A DNA stretch of 43,530 nt, taken from positions 1 to 43,530 of IMG/VR virus record IMGVR_UViG_2734482773_000003. The stretch is one strand, 5' to 3'. Under the pieces are notes generated by a model that saw nothing but the letters and a program-made list of their open reading frames with translations, searched no databases and was not told the origin of the DNA. The position numbers were made by a program, and so were the translations under genes. This DNA is from a virus. Its lineage: Duplodnaviria; Heunggongvirae; Uroviricota; Caudoviricetes. Of the stretch, positions 6,979 to 18,063 are shown piece by piece; the stretch's first letter is position 1, and each line of letters opens with the position of its first letter.

Positions 6979-7320
6979 TTACTCTTTAAGCTCCCCAACA
7001 GTAGAAAGGATATGTTCATGCAAACCATGCGGACCGTGTGCCCTGACTGCGGAAGTGAGATGTTCAACCAGCCCGATGATTTTGACTTTGAGACAAATTT
7101 CACCGGCGTCAGTTGTGCTGACTGTGGTCGCGAAATCACTAAGGACGATGTTGTCAATCAGGCCACGGACACGGTCAAAAAACAGATCGACGACATGCTC
7201 AGGAATTCCCTGAAAGGAGCTGGCTGGAAGTTCAAGTAACTTTAAAAGCTCCCCGGTCTGGGTAAGCACTTCGCTGGCGTCTACATTGAGCAGTAGTGGC
7301 GCCATTTTTTTATCTGACAT
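6979..7320 (-). CDS. hypothetical protein, first gene downstream of the pL-type region (113 aa)
   Basis: ATG at 7320 with GAGGGG 5 nt upstream; acidic protein, not arginine-rich like lambda N; overlaps antisense with the zinc-ribbon ORF 7018..7239(+). Confidence 0.35.
   Translation of the reverse strand: MSDKKMAPLLLNVDASEVLTQTGELLKLLELPASSFQGIPEHVVDLFFDRVRGLIDNIVLSDFATTVSTTDAGEICLKVKIIGLVEHLTSAVRAHGPHGLHEHILSTVGELKE
7018..7239 (+). CDS. small zinc-ribbon protein (74 aa), oppositely oriented in the leftward operon
   Basis: ATG at 7018 with AAGGA 7 nt upstream; CPDCG...(22 aa)...CADCG double CxxC motif; overlaps antisense with 6979..7320(-), so the two calls compete. Confidence 0.4.
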   Translation: MQTMRTVCPDCGSEMFNQPDDFDFETNFTGVSCADCGREITKDDVVNQATDTVKKQIDDMLRNSLKGAGWKFK

Positions 7321-7515
7321 ATACACCCCTCTGATTGTTTACCGTCAGCCCCTCGCAAAGAGCTGCTGGTAAATCGTTTAGCCATAATTGCCGCTCTTCC
7401 TGAGCCCGCCTATGGTCCGACGCATGGTTTACTGTCGCGCCGTTCGACTGACCGAATCTCCACTTCGCCGCTGGCTAACTTCGCTCAGCTGTCGATGTTT
7501 CGTTTCGATGGGGTG

Positions 7516-7560
7516 AATTTAGCGTGATGCTAAATTATGCGCAATAGCAAAATGCTAAAT
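7516..7560. promoter_or_regulatory. OL-type repressor operators (pL region)
   Basis: perfect palindrome aatttagc-gtgat-gctaaatt at 7516..7536 and tagca-aaa-tgcta at 7545..7557 (within 7544..7560); same TTTAGC/GCTAAA half-site as in the cI-cro intergenic region. Confidence 0.55.
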
Positions 7561-7630
7561 TGTTGAATGGTTTTATTTAGCGTATTGATTAATAAGCGAT
7601 TAAAAATTTACAGCGAAGGAATTCGGGACG

Positions 7631-7656
7631 TAAAAAAGCCCGCGCGATGGCGGGCT
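7631..7656 (-). terminator. intrinsic terminator downstream of the repressor gene
   Basis: hairpin agcccgc-gcgatg-gcgggct 7637..7656 followed on the minus strand by U6 (A-run 7632..7637 on plus). Confidence 0.55.
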
Positions 7657-7675
7657 TGAGGGGTTTTGCGTGAGG

Positions 7676-8353
7676 TTATGGGATGTTTAGTATTTTGGCA
7701 TCAACCACAACGCCGATGATTTTGCAGTTTCCATTAATTTCTAGCATTGGATATGCGGGGTTAAGGGGCTTTAGGAAGCGTCTGCCGGCATCGATTACAA
7801 GCTTCTTAAAGGTCGCTTCGTTATCGCCTTCTAGCTTCGCGACAACCAGCTTTCCGTTGCGCGGCTCGACTTCAGGATCAACAAGTATCGCTGCTCCCTC
7901 AGGTATGCTCAGTCCAGCCGGGGAGGTCATAGAATCCCCTTTAACGTCCAGCCAGAATGAATCTTCTGAGCAGTCAACAGTCGTGTCATACCAGCGATCT
8001 ATCGCTCTTCGGTGATAAGGTTCTACAGCTTCCATCCATTGCCCCGCGCTTACCCAGCTGATTACAGGATAACTTCCTTTTGTCTCGTTCAGTCCTCGAA
8101 ATGCAACGTTCGAAGGTTCTTCACTGGCGTGTAAAACATCCATCCAGCCAAAAGGCAGATCAAGCGCAGTTTCAATTTTGCGAGCCATCTTATCGCCGAT
8201 ATTGCGATGAGGGTTTGGTCCCAGTAGCTGGCTAAGCGCAGCCGGACTTGTCTCGATGAGCTCGGCAAACTGCGCTTTGGTCATTCCAGACTCGTGCTGA
8301 CGCTTCTCGTACAGCGCTTCCAGGTTGGCTTTTCTGATTTCTTTATTTTCCAT
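7676..8353 (-). CDS. cI: CI-like prophage repressor (HTH N-terminus plus S24 LexA-like autopeptidase C-terminus)
   Basis: ORF 7676..8470(-); ATG at 8353; N-terminal HTH (MTKAQFAELIETSPAALSQLL); C-terminal S24 motifs GDSM (Ser) and KLVV...K (Lys); divergent from the cro-like gene. Confidence 0.85.
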   Translation of the reverse strand: MENKEIRKANLEALYEKRQHESGMTKAQFAELIETSPAALSQLLGPNPHRNIGDKMARKIETALDLPFGWMDVLHASEEPSNVAFRGLNETKGSYPVISWVSAGQWMEAVEPYHRRAIDRWYDTTVDCSEDSFWLDVKGDSMTSPAGLSIPEGAAILVDPEVEPRNGKLVVAKLEGDNEATFKKLVIDAGRRFLKPLNPAYPMLEINGNCKIIGVVVDAKILNIP

Positions 8354-8371
8354 ACCTGCATTGTTACTGCT

Positions 8372-8439
8372 TTTAGCAAAATGATAAATGTGCAAATTGC
8401 TAAATGATGCTTGCGTAGTATTTAGCATAACGCTAAACT
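8372..8439. promoter_or_regulatory. OR-type operators with candidate pR promoter
   Basis: tttagc-aaaat-gataaa 8372..8388 and tttagc-ataac-gctaaa 8421..8437, plus a weaker site near 8388..8404; candidate rightward promoter TTGCGT (8411..8416) - 17 nt - TAAACT (8434..8439) overlapping the last operator. Confidence 0.55.
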
Positions 8440-8469
8440 CCAAATCAAACGACTCACCCGGAGACACCA

Positions 8470-8703
8470 ATGAGCACTGAACTACACCGCTGGCGCAAGG
8501 CCGCCACTACCGACGAATGGGCGCAGCTCGCAAAGTTGGCTAACACGACGCCAGGTTACCTGGACCAGATCGCCTACGGAAATCGCCGGGCATCTCCAGA
8601 AATGGCATCTGCTATCGAGAAAGGCACGAAGAATTTTCACCGCCAGGCTCCGGTCCTAAAAGAAAGCCTGGTATTCGCATCGCCGCGTGATACTGCGGCC
8701 TAA
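8470..8703 (+). CDS. cro: Cro-like HTH regulator (YdaS/Cro type)
   Basis: ATG 8470 with GGAG upstream; HTH-like segment EWAQLAKLANTTPGYLDQIAYGNRRASPEMASAIEKGT; first rightward gene divergent from cI. Confidence 0.7.
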   Translation: MSTELHRWRKAATTDEWAQLAKLANTTPGYLDQIAYGNRRASPEMASAIEKGTKNFHRQAPVLKESLVFASPRDTAA

Positions 8704-8720
8704 CCACGAAAGGGAAAGCA

Positions 8721-9263
8721 ATGCATTCACTTGCGTATCAACACAATACCGGAATACACCCGGGAGCGATGATAAACCGCGCTCAACCTAAGGCGGCGCC
8801 TGACCACGAAAAGATCCGCGATGCGGTCCGGGCATGGTCTTCGGCGCTGGACAATCAGGACGTCGTTTCGGCACTGATCATCAACGAATACCGGGAGCAG
8901 GGCGGGACCGCCATCAGCTTTCCTGACGACATCAGCCGTGCGCGCCAGAAGCTGTTCCGCTTCCTGGATAACCGTTTCGACTCCGAACAGTACCGCGAGA
9001 ACGTGCGCCAGCTGACACCCGCAATCATGTCCGTATTGCCGCTGGAGTACCGCAACCGCCTGGCGCCGCAGAACGACACGATGTCGCTGATCGCTTCTGC
9101 GATGAAAGAGTGTGCTGAAGCTAAACAGGCCGTGCTTTTGGACGCCCCAGAGCATCAGAAGCTGAAAGAGGTAAGCGAGGGTATAGCTTCGCTGTTCCGC
9201 CTCATGCCGGAGCAGGTAGGCCCACTGATGACGATGGTCACGTCGATGCTGGGGGTTATGTGA
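8721..9263 (+). CDS. YdaT-like regulatory protein (CII-position analogue)
   Basis: ATG 8721 with AAGGGA upstream; LTPAIMSVLPLEYRNRL region resembles Rac-prophage YdaT (from memory); sits immediately after cro. Confidence 0.55.
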   Translation: MHSLAYQHNTGIHPGAMINRAQPKAAPDHEKIRDAVRAWSSALDNQDVVSALIINEYREQGGTAISFPDDISRARQKLFRFLDNRFDSEQYRENVRQLTPAIMSVLPLEYRNRLAPQNDTMSLIASAMKECAEAKQAVLLDAPEHQKLKEVSEGIASLFRLMPEQVGPLMTMVTSMLGVM

Positions 9264-12113: not shown

Positions 12114-12544
12114 GCAACAAATACGAAGATCTGATTAAAAACGCCAGGGTGAATGCAGAATGTGGTGAGCACATGTCACCGGCAGAAGTTACGACTCTGC
12201 TTAACGTGTTTGAAACCACATTCGCTGCGCTGGCTGCGGAGAATGCGGGGCTGAAGCAGTTCCCTGACCAAATCGTTAGCTTCATCGGAAAGTTGGGCTC
12301 AAGCGAAATCGGCAGAGACACGAAAGAAAAAATTGAGTTCGCTGCGAATAAGGTCAAAACCCCAGCCACCGACGCTTTCCTGGCTGAAGTGCGGGCGCAG
12401 GGTGTGGAGATGTTTGCCGCACATAAGCGAGAACGACAGCAGGCTCTGCGTAGCCGAAGCATGAGGATGTCTGAAGAGGCTGCTGGCATGGCCGCAGATG
12501 CTGAGAACTTCGCCGACGAGCTTCGCAAAGGAGTGCAGTCATGA
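12110..12544 (+). CDS. hypothetical phage protein (144 aa)
   Basis: ATG 12110 overlapping the previous stop (ATGA) with G-rich Shine-Dalgarno; the longer ORF 11753..12544 is an out-of-frame read through the helicase 3' end. Confidence 0.5.
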   Translation: MSNKYEDLIKNARVNAECGEHMSPAEVTTLLNVFETTFAALAAENAGLKQFPDQIVSFIGKLGSSEIGRDTKEKIEFAANKVKTPATDAFLAEVRAQGVEMFAAHKRERQQALRSRSMRMSEEAAGMAADAENFADELRKGVQS

Positions 12545-13188
12545 GCGATAGATTTTACATGCTTTGTACTCGCGAAACGGTTGGCAGTAACGCGTCATTC
12601 CACTGCCACAACGGCAACGGATATAGCTCCAATATAGACCGCGCCCACGTGTACACCCGTGAAGAAGCTCAAAGAAGCTGGGAATTGGGTAGAGAGATTG
12701 ATCAGCCGGTTTGCGCTGACAGTGTTGATTCCATGGCTGTCTGGCATGTCGATTGTCAGTACATACCTACCGAAAGTGTTATTGAGCCTGGCTGTGAGTC
12801 CTATGTGGCCTACAAAAAAGGCAGTTGGAACGGTAACGATGTGTACTGGTTGCAACATGGAGGCCTTCCAACTGACGACTTCAGTAAGGCATTCGTTTTT
12901 GTATCCGCCAACACGGCAGAGCCTGGCATTGTCTGGATTCCTTTTGCTTTAGCTGACAAGGCTAAGCGCCGCACGTTCAGCATCAATGAGTTTAACCGAC
13001 GCACCATGGTTCAGGCGGCAGGGCTTGTCATGCCTGAGTGGCTGAAAAAGCACAACCGAAAAAAATCACGCAGCGGTAAGGTTCGCTGGAATTGCCCTTG
13101 CTGCGGAAAGATTAGCTGGCAGCTAAATCCATACGATTTCGATGGCTGCAGTGACATTGAATGTGAAGGTTGGAGGACCGCCCAATGA
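12541..13188 (+). CDS. hypothetical phage protein with C-terminal Cys cluster (215 aa)
   Basis: ATG 12541 overlapping the upstream stop; C-terminal WNCPCCGK...CSDIECEGW suggests a metal-binding module. Confidence 0.5.
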   Translation: MSDRFYMLCTRETVGSNASFHCHNGNGYSSNIDRAHVYTREEAQRSWELGREIDQPVCADSVDSMAVWHVDCQYIPTESVIEPGCESYVAYKKGSWNGNDVYWLQHGGLPTDDFSKAFVFVSANTAEPGIVWIPFALADKAKRRTFSINEFNRRTMVQAAGLVMPEWLKKHNRKKSRSGKVRWNCPCCGKISWQLNPYDFDGCSDIECEGWRTAQ

Positions 13189-17987: not shown

Positions 17988-18063
17988 GCTGATTTAGCTC
18001 AGTAGGTAGAGCGCCTGCCTTGTAAGCAGGATGTCGGCGGTTCAACTCCGTCAATCAGCACCA
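17988..18063 (+). tRNA. tRNA-Thr (anticodon UGU)
   Basis: 76-nt cloverleaf folded by hand: 7-bp acceptor stem GCTGATT/AATCAGC, D-arm GCTC/GAGC, anticodon stem CCTGC/GCAGG with loop CTTGTAA (U33, anticodon TGT, A37), T-arm GGCGG/CCGTC with TTCAACT loop, encoded CCA. Confidence 0.8.

What the first reader, a model, noticed from the sequence alone, without database searches (positions are those of the whole stretch)
7516..8439. Immunity-region operators share a TTTAGC-N5-GCTAAA palindrome on both sides of cI
A perfect 21-bp palindrome (7516..7536) and a second site (7544..7560) lie left of cI, and at least two sites of the same architecture (8372..8388, 8421..8437) lie in the cI-cro intergenic region overlapping a TTGCGT-N17-TAAACT promoter. 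This is the lambda OL/OR layout and defines the immunity specificity of this prophage. The half-site differs from the lambda, 434 and P22 operators as I recall them.
Basis: seen in the sequence. Interest (0 to 1): 0.45.

Follow-up and report, generated by a model that had tools for sequence, protein, structure and literature searches.

The report
Prophage repressor operators, H-19B type
These are the repressor-binding sites (three on each side of the cI gene) that keep an E. coli lambda-like prophage silent; they are real and strongly conserved, but they are an ordinary relative of the operators already studied in Shiga-toxin phage H-19B.

Summary
The window carries 17-bp dyads of the form TTTAGC-N5-GCTAAA clustered on both sides of a cI-type repressor gene. 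There are six, not four. OL1 is 7518-7534, OL2 7543-7559 and OL3 7576-7592. OR3 is 8372-8388, OR2 8388-8404 and OR1 8421-8437. Five of the six window hits at two or fewer mismatches fall in 312 bp of 43.5 kb (P about 1e-10).

Across 42 distinct related sequences, 38 of 50 operator columns are invariant, against 8 of 66 outside the sites.

The repressor's DNA-binding domain is 51% identical to that of phage H-19B cI, and Cro is 61% identical to H-19B Cro. H-19B has the same site geometry with TTTATC or TTTACC half-sites. Pantoea and Pseudomonas relatives keep the geometry but change the half-site together with the cI recognition helix.

The two perfect sites sit inside the PR and PL spacers and -10 hexamers. 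OR2 lies about -43 from a putative leaderless PRM. OR3 covers its -35.

- The "21-bp perfect palindrome" is an 8-N5-8 inverted repeat.
- One coordinate is off by 1.
- Spacing differs from lambda.

Verdict: a new immunity specificity within a known kind of switch. Interest is low to moderate.

The parts
7518..7534 (.). OL1. Perfect dyad TTTAGC-GTGAT-GCTAAA; the arms extend to 7516-7536. It lies in the spacer and -10 of PL.
   Evidence: A perfect TTTAGC-N5-GCTAAA at this place in relatives' OL regions, which were located by searching for that pattern.
7543..7559 (.). OL2. AATAGC-AAAAT-GCTAAA (2 mismatches). The deviant half overlaps the PL -35 by 2 nt.
   Evidence: The deviation (GCTATT on the cI strand) is conserved in relatives.
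7576..7592 (.). OL3. TTTAGC-GTATT-GATTAA (2 mismatches). Its centre is 33 bp from OL2.
7516..7544 (-). Putative PL. -35 TTGCGC (7544-7539), 17-nt spacer, -10 TAAATT (7521-7516).
   Evidence: TTG and TAAATT are conserved in relatives. It is below the threshold of the generic scan.
7636..7657 (-). Intrinsic terminator after cI (AAGCCCGC-loop-GCGGGCTT followed by TTTTTT). It separates the PRM transcript from OL and PL.
7676..8353 (-). cI repressor, 225 aa. The N-terminal HTH domain (residues 1-80) is H-19B-like. The C-terminal S24 domain (81-225) is 83% identical to P22 c2. Ala103-Gly104, Ser141 and Lys183/184 are present.
8360..8388 (-). Putative PRM. -35 TTTATC (8388-8383, inside OR3), 17-nt spacer, -10 AACAAT (8365-8360). 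The -10 ends 6 nt before the cI ATG, which implies a leaderless cI mRNA.
   Evidence: A at -11 and T at -7 are invariant in 45 of 45 distinct sequences. This is inference; nothing has been mapped.
8372..8388 (.). OR3. TTTAGC-AAAAT-GATAAA (1 mismatch). The TTTATC half is conserved in all relatives.
8388..8404 (.). OR2. ATGTGC-AAATT-GCTAAA, with one good half and one weak half. It shares 1 bp with OR3. Its centre is about -43 from the cI ATG.
   Evidence: (direct repeat D1).
8411..8439 (+). Putative PR. -35 TTGCGT, 17-nt spacer, -10 TAAACT.
   Evidence: TTGC and TAAAnT are conserved. It is below the threshold of the generic scan.
8421..8437 (.). OR1. Perfect dyad TTTAGC-ATAAC-GCTAAA in the spacer and -10 of PR.
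   Evidence: It is conserved across Escherichia, Klebsiella, Enterobacter, Citrobacter, Atlantibacter, Phytobacter, Biostraticola and Pantoea.
8470..8703 (+). cro, 77 aa, 61% identical to H-19B Cro.
8721..9263 (+). cII-like activator with a YdaT domain.
   Evidence: YdaT acts as a CII analogue in CP-933P (PMC8630535).

Best explanation
The six dyads are the OL and OR operators of a lambdoid prophage whose immunity module is a relative of the one in phage H-19B.

**Shown by sequence**
- Dimers of the 225-aa cI would read ATTTAGCA half-sites set 11 bp apart.
- The two perfect sites, OR1 and OL1, lie between the -35 and -10 of PR and PL.

**Inferred mechanism**
- cI bound at OR1 and OL1 blocks RNA polymerase and silences the early lytic operons.
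- OR2 has one good and one weak half, so it is probably filled cooperatively. Its centre is about -43 from the start of a leaderless cI transcript, the position from which lambda cI activates PRM.
- OR3 covers the PRM -35 and always keeps one weakened half (TTTATC). It would shut off cI synthesis at high repressor levels and be the entry point for Cro.
- The P22-c2-like S24 domain has an Ala-Gly site and a Ser/Lys dyad. It would make the switch SOS-inducible through RecA-stimulated self-cleavage.
- The half-site sequence sets the immunity specificity. This phage is predicted to be homoimmune with Klebsiella phages KO-TP1 and Chronis, and heteroimmune with H-19B, P22, lambda and 434.
For: - **Clustering far above chance:**
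- **Gene context:** an HTH plus S24 repressor, a divergent cro and a cII-like gene.
- **Homology to H-19B:** the cI N-terminal domain is 51% identical and Cro 61% identical. H-19B has the same site layout. Its operators were studied experimentally by Shi and Friedman 2001, as cited in PMC8065619.
- **Phylogenetic footprint:** 38 of 50 operator columns are invariant against 8 of 66 flanking columns in 42 distinct sequences. Fisher P is 2e-12, which overstates independence because the sequences are related.
- **Concerted change in Pantoea:** Pantoea latae and Pantoea alvi relatives carry TTTATC/GATAAA at all six sites. The spacing and the weak halves are the same, and the cI recognition helix is different.
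- **Concerted change in Pseudomonas:** Pseudomonas phage relatives carry TGTACC-N5-GGTACA with the same OR geometry.
- **Promoter overlap and conserved PRM -10:**
- **True cI start at MENKE:** shown by in-frame stops upstream of it in relatives.
Against: - No binding, footprint or transcript-mapping data exist for this phage.
- PR, PL and PRM match the sigma-70 consensus only moderately (7 of 12) and are not called by the generic scan.
- OR2 has 3 mismatches and is recognised mainly by its register and its conservation.
- OR2 does not overlap the PR -35, so repression of PR rests on OR1 alone.
- The 16-bp and 33-bp centre spacings are not those at which lambda-type pairwise cooperativity is known to work.
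- Some operator conservation may come from the promoter hexamers that overlap the sites.
- The relatives are not independent samples.
Confidence: 0.9

Rival explanations
1. The dyads are bound mainly by a regulator other than cI and Cro, such as the YdaT/cII-like protein, another phage HTH protein or a host factor. On this reading cI's true operators are something else.
For: No direct binding data exist. The Cro recognition helix is nearly invariant across classes whose half-sites differ, so at least one of the two proteins does not track the half-site change.
Against: - The half-site changes in step with the cI recognition helix in three lineages.
- The sites sit exactly at the two promoters that a prophage repressor must control.
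- No other repeated dyad is present in the two regions.
- From established knowledge, lambda CII-type activators use direct repeats at PRE, not dyads.
Confidence: 0.04
2. The repeated TTTAGC/GCTAAA words are by-products of A+T-rich promoter sequence, meaning -10-like TAAAnT elements and UP elements. On this reading they are conserved as promoters and not as protein-binding dyads.
For: GCTAAA overlaps the -10 hexamers of PR and PL. Both regions are A+T-rich, with GC of 0.39 to 0.42.
Against: - Composition-matched shuffles essentially never give the observed counts.
- OR2, OL3 and most of OL2 lie outside the promoter hexamers and are still conserved.
- Dyad symmetry with a fixed 5-bp spacer is not a promoter property.
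- Both halves change together in the Pantoea and Pseudomonas relatives.
Confidence: 0.03
3. The inverted repeats act as RNA or DNA hairpins, for example terminators or processing sites, and not as duplex protein-binding sites.
For: They are inverted repeats with 5-nt loops.
Against: - The stems are 6-8 bp and A/T-rich, so they would be weak.
- No T-tract follows them. The only terminator-like hairpin found is the G+C-rich one at 7636-7657.
- Several sites have one degenerate arm, which is tolerated by dimeric proteins but not by hairpins.
- Rfam finds nothing here.
Confidence: 0.01

Closest known systems
Phage H-19B (Stx1 phage) immunity region: cI, cro, OL and OR (Neely and Friedman 1998; Shi and Friedman 2001)
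   Same: - The cI DNA-binding domain is homologous (51% identity) and Cro is homologous (61%).
- The sites have the same 6-N5-6 form.
- The OR layout is the same: OR1, a 16-bp gap, then OR2 and OR3 sharing 1 bp, with a weak outer half in OR2.
- The OL layout is the same, with OL2 overlapping the PL -35.
- The PR, PL and PRM placement is the same.
   Different: - The half-site is TTTAGC here and TTTATC or TTTACC in H-19B.
- The cI recognition helix is TSPAALSQLLG here and VSPSQLTQVSG in H-19B.
- H-19B has a fourth OR-side site between OR1 and cro (four sites according to PMC8065619). That site is absent here.
- The C-terminal domain here is P22-c2-like, not H-19B-like.
- H-19B has about 1.6 kb inserted between cI and OL.
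Bacteriophage lambda OL/OR switch
   Same: - Three dyad operators lie on each side of cI.
- PRM and PR diverge.
- The strongest sites lie over PR and PL.
- The middle site sits about -42/-43 from PRM.
- The cI mRNA is leaderless (inferred here).
- The repressor is LexA-like and self-cleaving.
   Different: - The operator sequence is unrelated.
- Centre spacings are 16 and 33 bp at OR and 25 and 33 bp at OL. In lambda they are about 23-24 bp (from memory).
- OR2 does not overlap the PR -35.
- An intrinsic terminator lies directly after cI, and there are no rex genes.
- No N-like gene was recognised downstream of PL.
- The cII analogue has a YdaT domain.
Phage P22 c2 repressor and immC
   Same: The C-terminal oligomerisation and cleavage domain is 83% identical. 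That part is about 77% identical at the DNA level.
   Different: The N-terminal DNA-binding domain is unrelated. The P22 c2-cro region has no TTTAGC-N5-GCTAAA site.
KorB operator OB of IncP plasmids (TTTAGC-N1-GCTAAA)
   Same: The 6-bp half-site is identical (from memory; the papers surfaced).
   Different: The spacer is 1 bp, not 5 bp. The binding protein is a ParB-family protein with no relative in this region. The resemblance is coincidental.

Membership tests
Lambdoid cI/Cro genetic switch | Repressor with an N-terminal HTH domain and a C-terminal LexA-like S24 self-cleavage domain (Ala-Gly site, Ser/Lys dyad) | tested here: met
   Pfam gives HTH_3 and Peptidase_S24. The C-terminal domain is 83% identical to P22 c2. 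Ala103-Gly104, Ser141 in GDSM and Lys in FKKL are present.
Lambdoid cI/Cro genetic switch | Divergently transcribed cro followed by a cII-type gene | tested here: met
   cro is 8470-8703, 61% identical to H-19B Cro. The next gene matches YdaT and phrog_163, annotated as a CII-like activator.
Lambdoid cI/Cro genetic switch | Several dyad-symmetric operators in the cI-cro gap that overlap PR and PRM | tested here: met
Lambdoid cI/Cro genetic switch | A second operator cluster beyond cI that overlaps a leftward early promoter | tested here: met
Lambdoid cI/Cro genetic switch | Repressor and Cro bind these sites and control the promoters | not testable with these tools
   This needs EMSA, footprinting and reporter assays.
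Lambdoid cI/Cro genetic switch | N antiterminator gene and nut site downstream of PL | tested here: inconclusive
   The first ORFs left of PL have no N-like Pfam or PHROG match. Rfam finds nothing there. I did not pursue this further.
H-19B-type immunity module | cI DNA-binding domain and Cro homologous to those of H-19B | tested here: met
   51% identity over the N-terminal domain. 61% identity over the whole of Cro.
H-19B-type immunity module | Operator geometry: 6-N5-6 dyads, with OR1 separated by 16 bp from OR2 and OR3, which share 1 bp | tested here: met
   The same geometry is seen in Pseudomonas phage relatives.
H-19B-type immunity module | Same operator sequence and recognition helix as H-19B (homoimmunity) | tested here: not met
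   The half-site is TTTAGC here against TTTATC or TTTACC. The recognition helix is TSPAALSQLLG against VSPSQLTQVSG. Actual cross-immunity has not been tested.
H-19B-type immunity module | A fourth operator on the cro side of OR1 | tested here: not met
   H-19B has TTTATCACACAGAACAA at -101. The window has no site at 3 or fewer mismatches between 8438 and 8469.
P22 immC | c2-type DNA-binding domain and P22 operators | tested here: not met
   Only residues 81-225 align with c2. No motif is present in the P22 c2-cro region.

The most novel reading that the evidence does not exclude
Within this switch family, cI specificity and Cro specificity have come apart.

- The cI recognition helix and half-site position 5 (G or T) changed together between sister lineages: the TTTAGC class on one side, the Pantoea and H-19B TTTATC class on the other.
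- The Cro recognition helix (GYLDQIAYG) stayed essentially constant across those lineages.
- Every TTTAGC-class phage also keeps one TTTATC half in OR3.

Cro would then read only the shared bases and could act across phages that are heteroimmune for cI. The OR3 asymmetry would be the device that gives Cro and cI opposite site preferences.

A milder version is that one invariant operator set defines a single immunity group. That group would span at least eight enterobacterial genera, even though the repressor DNA-binding domain has diverged to 57% identity.
Probability: 0.25. Interest if true: 0.5.

Novelty: new member of a known kind. Interest (0 to 1): 0.3.

Why it matters
The finding defines the operator set, and so the predicted immunity group, of a prophage type. 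That type is present in about 0.5% of complete E. coli genomes (27 of 5,426) and in Klebsiella, Enterobacter, Citrobacter and Pantoea relatives.

It corrects the cI start codon in public annotations, which currently begin the gene inside OR1 or in cro.

It also gives a clean natural series for studying how repressor and operator co-evolve while the geometry of the switch stays fixed. The series is TTTAGC, then TTTATC, then TGTACC, with layout and weak halves unchanged.

It does not reveal a new kind of regulation.

Tried and rejected
- **Protein search with the N-terminal domain alone.** It returned only 11 fragments and was of no use. I replaced it with locus scans.
- **Primary H-19B and 933W operator papers.** PubMed 11532127, PubMed 9858702 and PMC524894 are not held. 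What I say about H-19B operators rests on the H-19B sequence itself and on a review's one-line summary.
- **Literature search for the exact operator sequences.** It found nothing. The search for TTTAGC with operator, repressor and phage gave no listed title about operators of this phage type; I did not open those papers.
- **Generic sigma-70 scan.** It found no promoter in 7300-8750. The PR, PL and PRM assignments therefore rest on position and conservation only.
- **Rfam scan of the whole window.** It found only a tRNA.
- **Fold of the roughly 185-nt PL leader.** The z-score is -1.97, which is marginal. I dropped the idea of a put-like antiterminator RNA as unsupported.
- **PDB sequence search with the N-terminal domain.** The best hit is a phage CI domain at E = 0.017, too weak to assign base contacts.
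- **Seventh motif hit at 13111-13127.** It lies inside an ORF and has a G+C-rich spacer. I judged it to be chance, since 1.5 hits are expected.
- **Fourth OR site as in H-19B.** I looked for it and found none.
- **Single-residue determinant of G versus T at half-site position 5.** I could not identify one. The Pantoea L011-L013 proteins have Gln at the same helix position as the TTTATC-class proteins, yet they keep TTTAGC operators.

Full report
**1. What is in the sequence**

- 7516-7536 is AATTTAGC GTGAT GCTAAATT. It has two perfect 8-nt inverted arms around a 5-nt spacer (I3). The spacer is not self-complementary, so this is not a perfect 21-bp palindrome.
- A scan with TTTAGC-N5-GCTAAA at up to two mismatches gives six hits in 43,530 bases: 7518-7534 (0 mismatches), 7543-7559 (2), 7576-7592 (2), 8372-8388 (1), 8421-8437 (0) and 13111-13127 (1). 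Shuffles give 1.5 on average, and none of 100 reaches six.
- At three mismatches a sixth clustered site appears at 8388-8404. It is in exact register with a 13-nt direct repeat found independently at 8376, 8392 and 8425.
- Five of the six hits at two or fewer mismatches lie in 312 intergenic bases (binomial P about 1e-10).
- Mononucleotide shuffles of each A+T-rich stretch almost never reproduce the counts.
- A 41-kb locus from E. coli L73 includes 12 kb of host DNA. In it only the same five sites match.
- The hit at 13111 lies inside an ORF, has a G+C-rich spacer and is within the chance expectation.

**2. Gene context**

- The ORF between the two clusters is a 225-aa protein on the minus strand, 7676-8353. 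It has HTH_3 and Peptidase_S24 domains.
- To its right, on the plus strand, are a 77-aa Cro-like HTH protein (8470-8703) and a 180-aa YdaT-domain protein (8721-9263). The latter matches the PHROG family annotated as CII-like activator. A YdaT homologue acts as a CII analogue in prophage CP-933P (PMC8630535).
- The region is 99-100% identical to prophages in 27 of 5,426 complete E. coli genomes. It is 91.5% identical to Klebsiella phage KO-TP1.
- The repressor is a chimera. Residues 81-225 are 83% identical to P22 c2. Residues 1-80 are unrelated to c2 and are 51% identical to the N-terminal domain of H-19B cI. Cro is 61% identical to H-19B Cro.

**3. True start of cI**

- RefSeq and the two Klebsiella phage records start the gene 25 or 39 codons further upstream, inside OR1 or in cro.
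- In H-19B and in four relatives from other genera, that upstream frame contains stop codons. Conservation at the protein level begins at MENK.
- The start is therefore the ATG at 8353.

**4. Comparison with relatives**

I collected relatives of the N-terminal domain from representative genomes (15 loci), from IMG/VR (80 loci) and from GenBank phages.
- The 123 nt upstream of cI align without gaps (one Pantoea pair has OR1 shifted by 1 nt). They fall into 45 distinct sequences, and 42 of these have TTTAGC at OR1.
- In those 42, 38 of 50 operator columns are invariant, against 8 of 66 other intergenic columns. The Fisher P of 2e-12 overstates independence, because the sequences are related.
- OR1 (TTTAGCGTTATGCTAAA on the cI strand) is conserved (only its first spacer base and one half-site base vary) in relatives from Escherichia, Klebsiella, Enterobacter, Citrobacter, Atlantibacter, Phytobacter, Biostraticola and Pantoea. 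The N-terminal domain identity in that set falls as low as 57%.
- The invariant columns outside the sites are the TTGC of the PR -35 and a RANAAT hexamer just before the cI ATG.
- OL is conserved in the same way. OL1 is perfect in the loci examined, which were located by searching for a perfect dyad. OL2 always deviates to GCTATT, whose TT begins the PL -35 (TTGnnn). OL3 lies 33 bp further on.

**5. Co-variation of operator and repressor**

- Pantoea latae and Pantoea alvi relatives have the helix LNPAQLSQVLG in place of TSPAALSQLLG. They carry TTTATC/GATAAA at all six sites, with the same spacing and the same weak halves. Even the weak half of OR2 changes from GCACAT to GAACAT.
- H-19B (helix VSPSQLTQVSG) has TTTACC-N5-GATAAA, TTTATC-N5-GCGTAT and TTTATC-N5-GCTAAA in the same layout. 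Its OL1 is TTTATCATTCCGATAAA.
- Pseudomonas phages vB_Pae_CF3a and LPPA33 are 44-49% identical in the N-terminal domain and have the helix EPTQVSRLIG. They carry TGTACC-N5-GGTACA sites arranged as site 1, an 18-bp gap, then site 2 with a weak outer half sharing 1 bp with site 3.
- So the geometry is a family trait, and the half-site follows the cI recognition helix. This is the best in-silico evidence that cI is the protein that reads these sites.
- The Cro helix (GYLDQIAYG) hardly changes between the TTTAGC and TTTATC classes.

**6. Anatomy and inferred mechanism**

- **PR.** TTGCGT (8411-8416), 17 nt, TAAACT (8434-8439).
- **PL (minus strand).** TTGCGC (7544-7539), 17 nt, TAAATT (7521-7516).
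- **Perfect sites.** OR1 and OL1 each fill the spacer and reach into the -10 hexamer, so bound repressor should exclude RNA polymerase.
- **PRM.** Its candidate -10 is AACAAT (8365-8360). A at -11 and T at -7 are invariant in 45 of 45 sequences, and the hexamer always ends 6 nt before the ATG. No Shine-Dalgarno sequence fits in that gap. This points to a leaderless cI mRNA, as in lambda.
- **OR3 and OR2 relative to PRM.** With +1 at the A of the ATG, OR3 spans -35 to -19, which covers the -35 hexamer and part of the spacer. OR2 spans -51 to -35, with its centre at -43. That is close to the position from which lambda cI at OR2 activates PRM (about -42, from memory).
- **Terminator.** A G+C-rich terminator at 7636-7657 follows cI on the minus strand.
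- **Induction.** The S24 domain has Ala103-Gly104, Ser141 and Lys183/184, as expected for RecA-stimulated self-cleavage.
- **Status of these statements.** The positions are shown. Binding order, cooperativity, activation and induction are inferred.

**7. Differences from lambda**

- Centre-to-centre distances are 16 bp (OR3-OR2), 33 bp (OR2-OR1), 25 bp (OL1-OL2) and 33 bp (OL2-OL3).
- OR2 does not overlap the PR -35.
- A spacing of 16 bp puts the OR2 and OR3 dimers on roughly opposite faces of the helix. A spacing of 33 bp is about three turns.
- H-19B is reported to have four OR sites (PMC8065619). A candidate fourth site is visible in its sequence but not in the window.
- I recognised no N-like gene left of PL.

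**8. What is known, and novelty**

- The primary H-19B operator papers are not in the library.
- No paper held contains these operator sequences.
- To my knowledge this immunity type has not been characterised. It is nonetheless a straightforward relative of a studied system, so I file it as a new member of a known kind.
- The half-site equals that of IncP KorB operators. The spacing and the binding protein differ, so the resemblance is coincidental.

**9. Verdict**

- Confidence that these are the cI/Cro operators is 0.9.
- Confidence in the detailed PRM model is about 0.6.
- Interest is 0.3.

Noticed in passing
window 7676-8470 (cI start region): Public annotations of this repressor start upstream of the real ATG at 8353. 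RefSeq gives 250 aa, KO-TP1 250 aa and Chronis 264 aa, so the starts fall inside OR1 or in cro. In-frame stops in H-19B and in four relatives show that the extension is spurious.
   Followed up: yes
L100 1395-1482 and L101 1395-1482 (Pseudomonas phages vB_Pae_CF3a and LPPA33): Distant relatives of the cI N-terminal domain have TGTACC-N5-GGTACA dyads with the same OR geometry. Site 1 stands alone, and sites 2 and 3 share 1 bp, with a weak outer half in site 2.
   Followed up: partly
window 8470-8703 and the cro genes of related loci: The Cro recognition helix (GYLDQIAYG) is almost invariant across lineages whose cI helix and operator half-site differ. This suggests that Cro reads only the shared bases and may cross-react between heteroimmune phages.
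   Followed up: partly
window 7327-7510, minus strand: A long leader of about 185 nt lies downstream of PL before the first ORF. Its start (CCATCGAAACGAAACATCG) is conserved in many relatives. The fold z-score is only -1.97 and there is no Rfam match. I recognised no N-like antiterminator gene.
   Followed up: partly
window 6979-7326 (-) and 7060-7239 (+): Two overlapping ORFs lie on opposite strands just left of PL. One is a 115-aa minus-strand ORF with only a weak PHROG hit. The other is a 59-aa plus-strand ORF at the position RefSeq annotates as an ECs_2282-family zinc-binding protein in strain L73. Only one of the two is likely to be real.
   Followed up: no
window 17988-18063 (+): A tRNA-Thr (anticodon TGT) gene is carried inside the prophage.
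   Followed up: no
window 13111-13127: An isolated 1-mismatch match, ATTAGCTGGCAGCTAAA, lies inside ORF 12541-13188. Its spacer is G+C-rich. It is probably chance.
   Followed up: partly
L077 and L051 (IMG/VR) and L003 (H-19B): In some relatives, 0.7-1.6 kb is inserted between the cI stop and OL. In most others OL starts about 85 bp after the stop. This looks like a moron insertion point.
   Followed up: no
window 7676-8353: The repressor is a domain chimera, with an H-19B-type N-terminal domain joined near residue 80 to a P22-c2-type C-terminal domain. The DNA-binding domain, the operators and cro travel together, while the cleavage and oligomerisation domain is exchangeable.
   Followed up: partly
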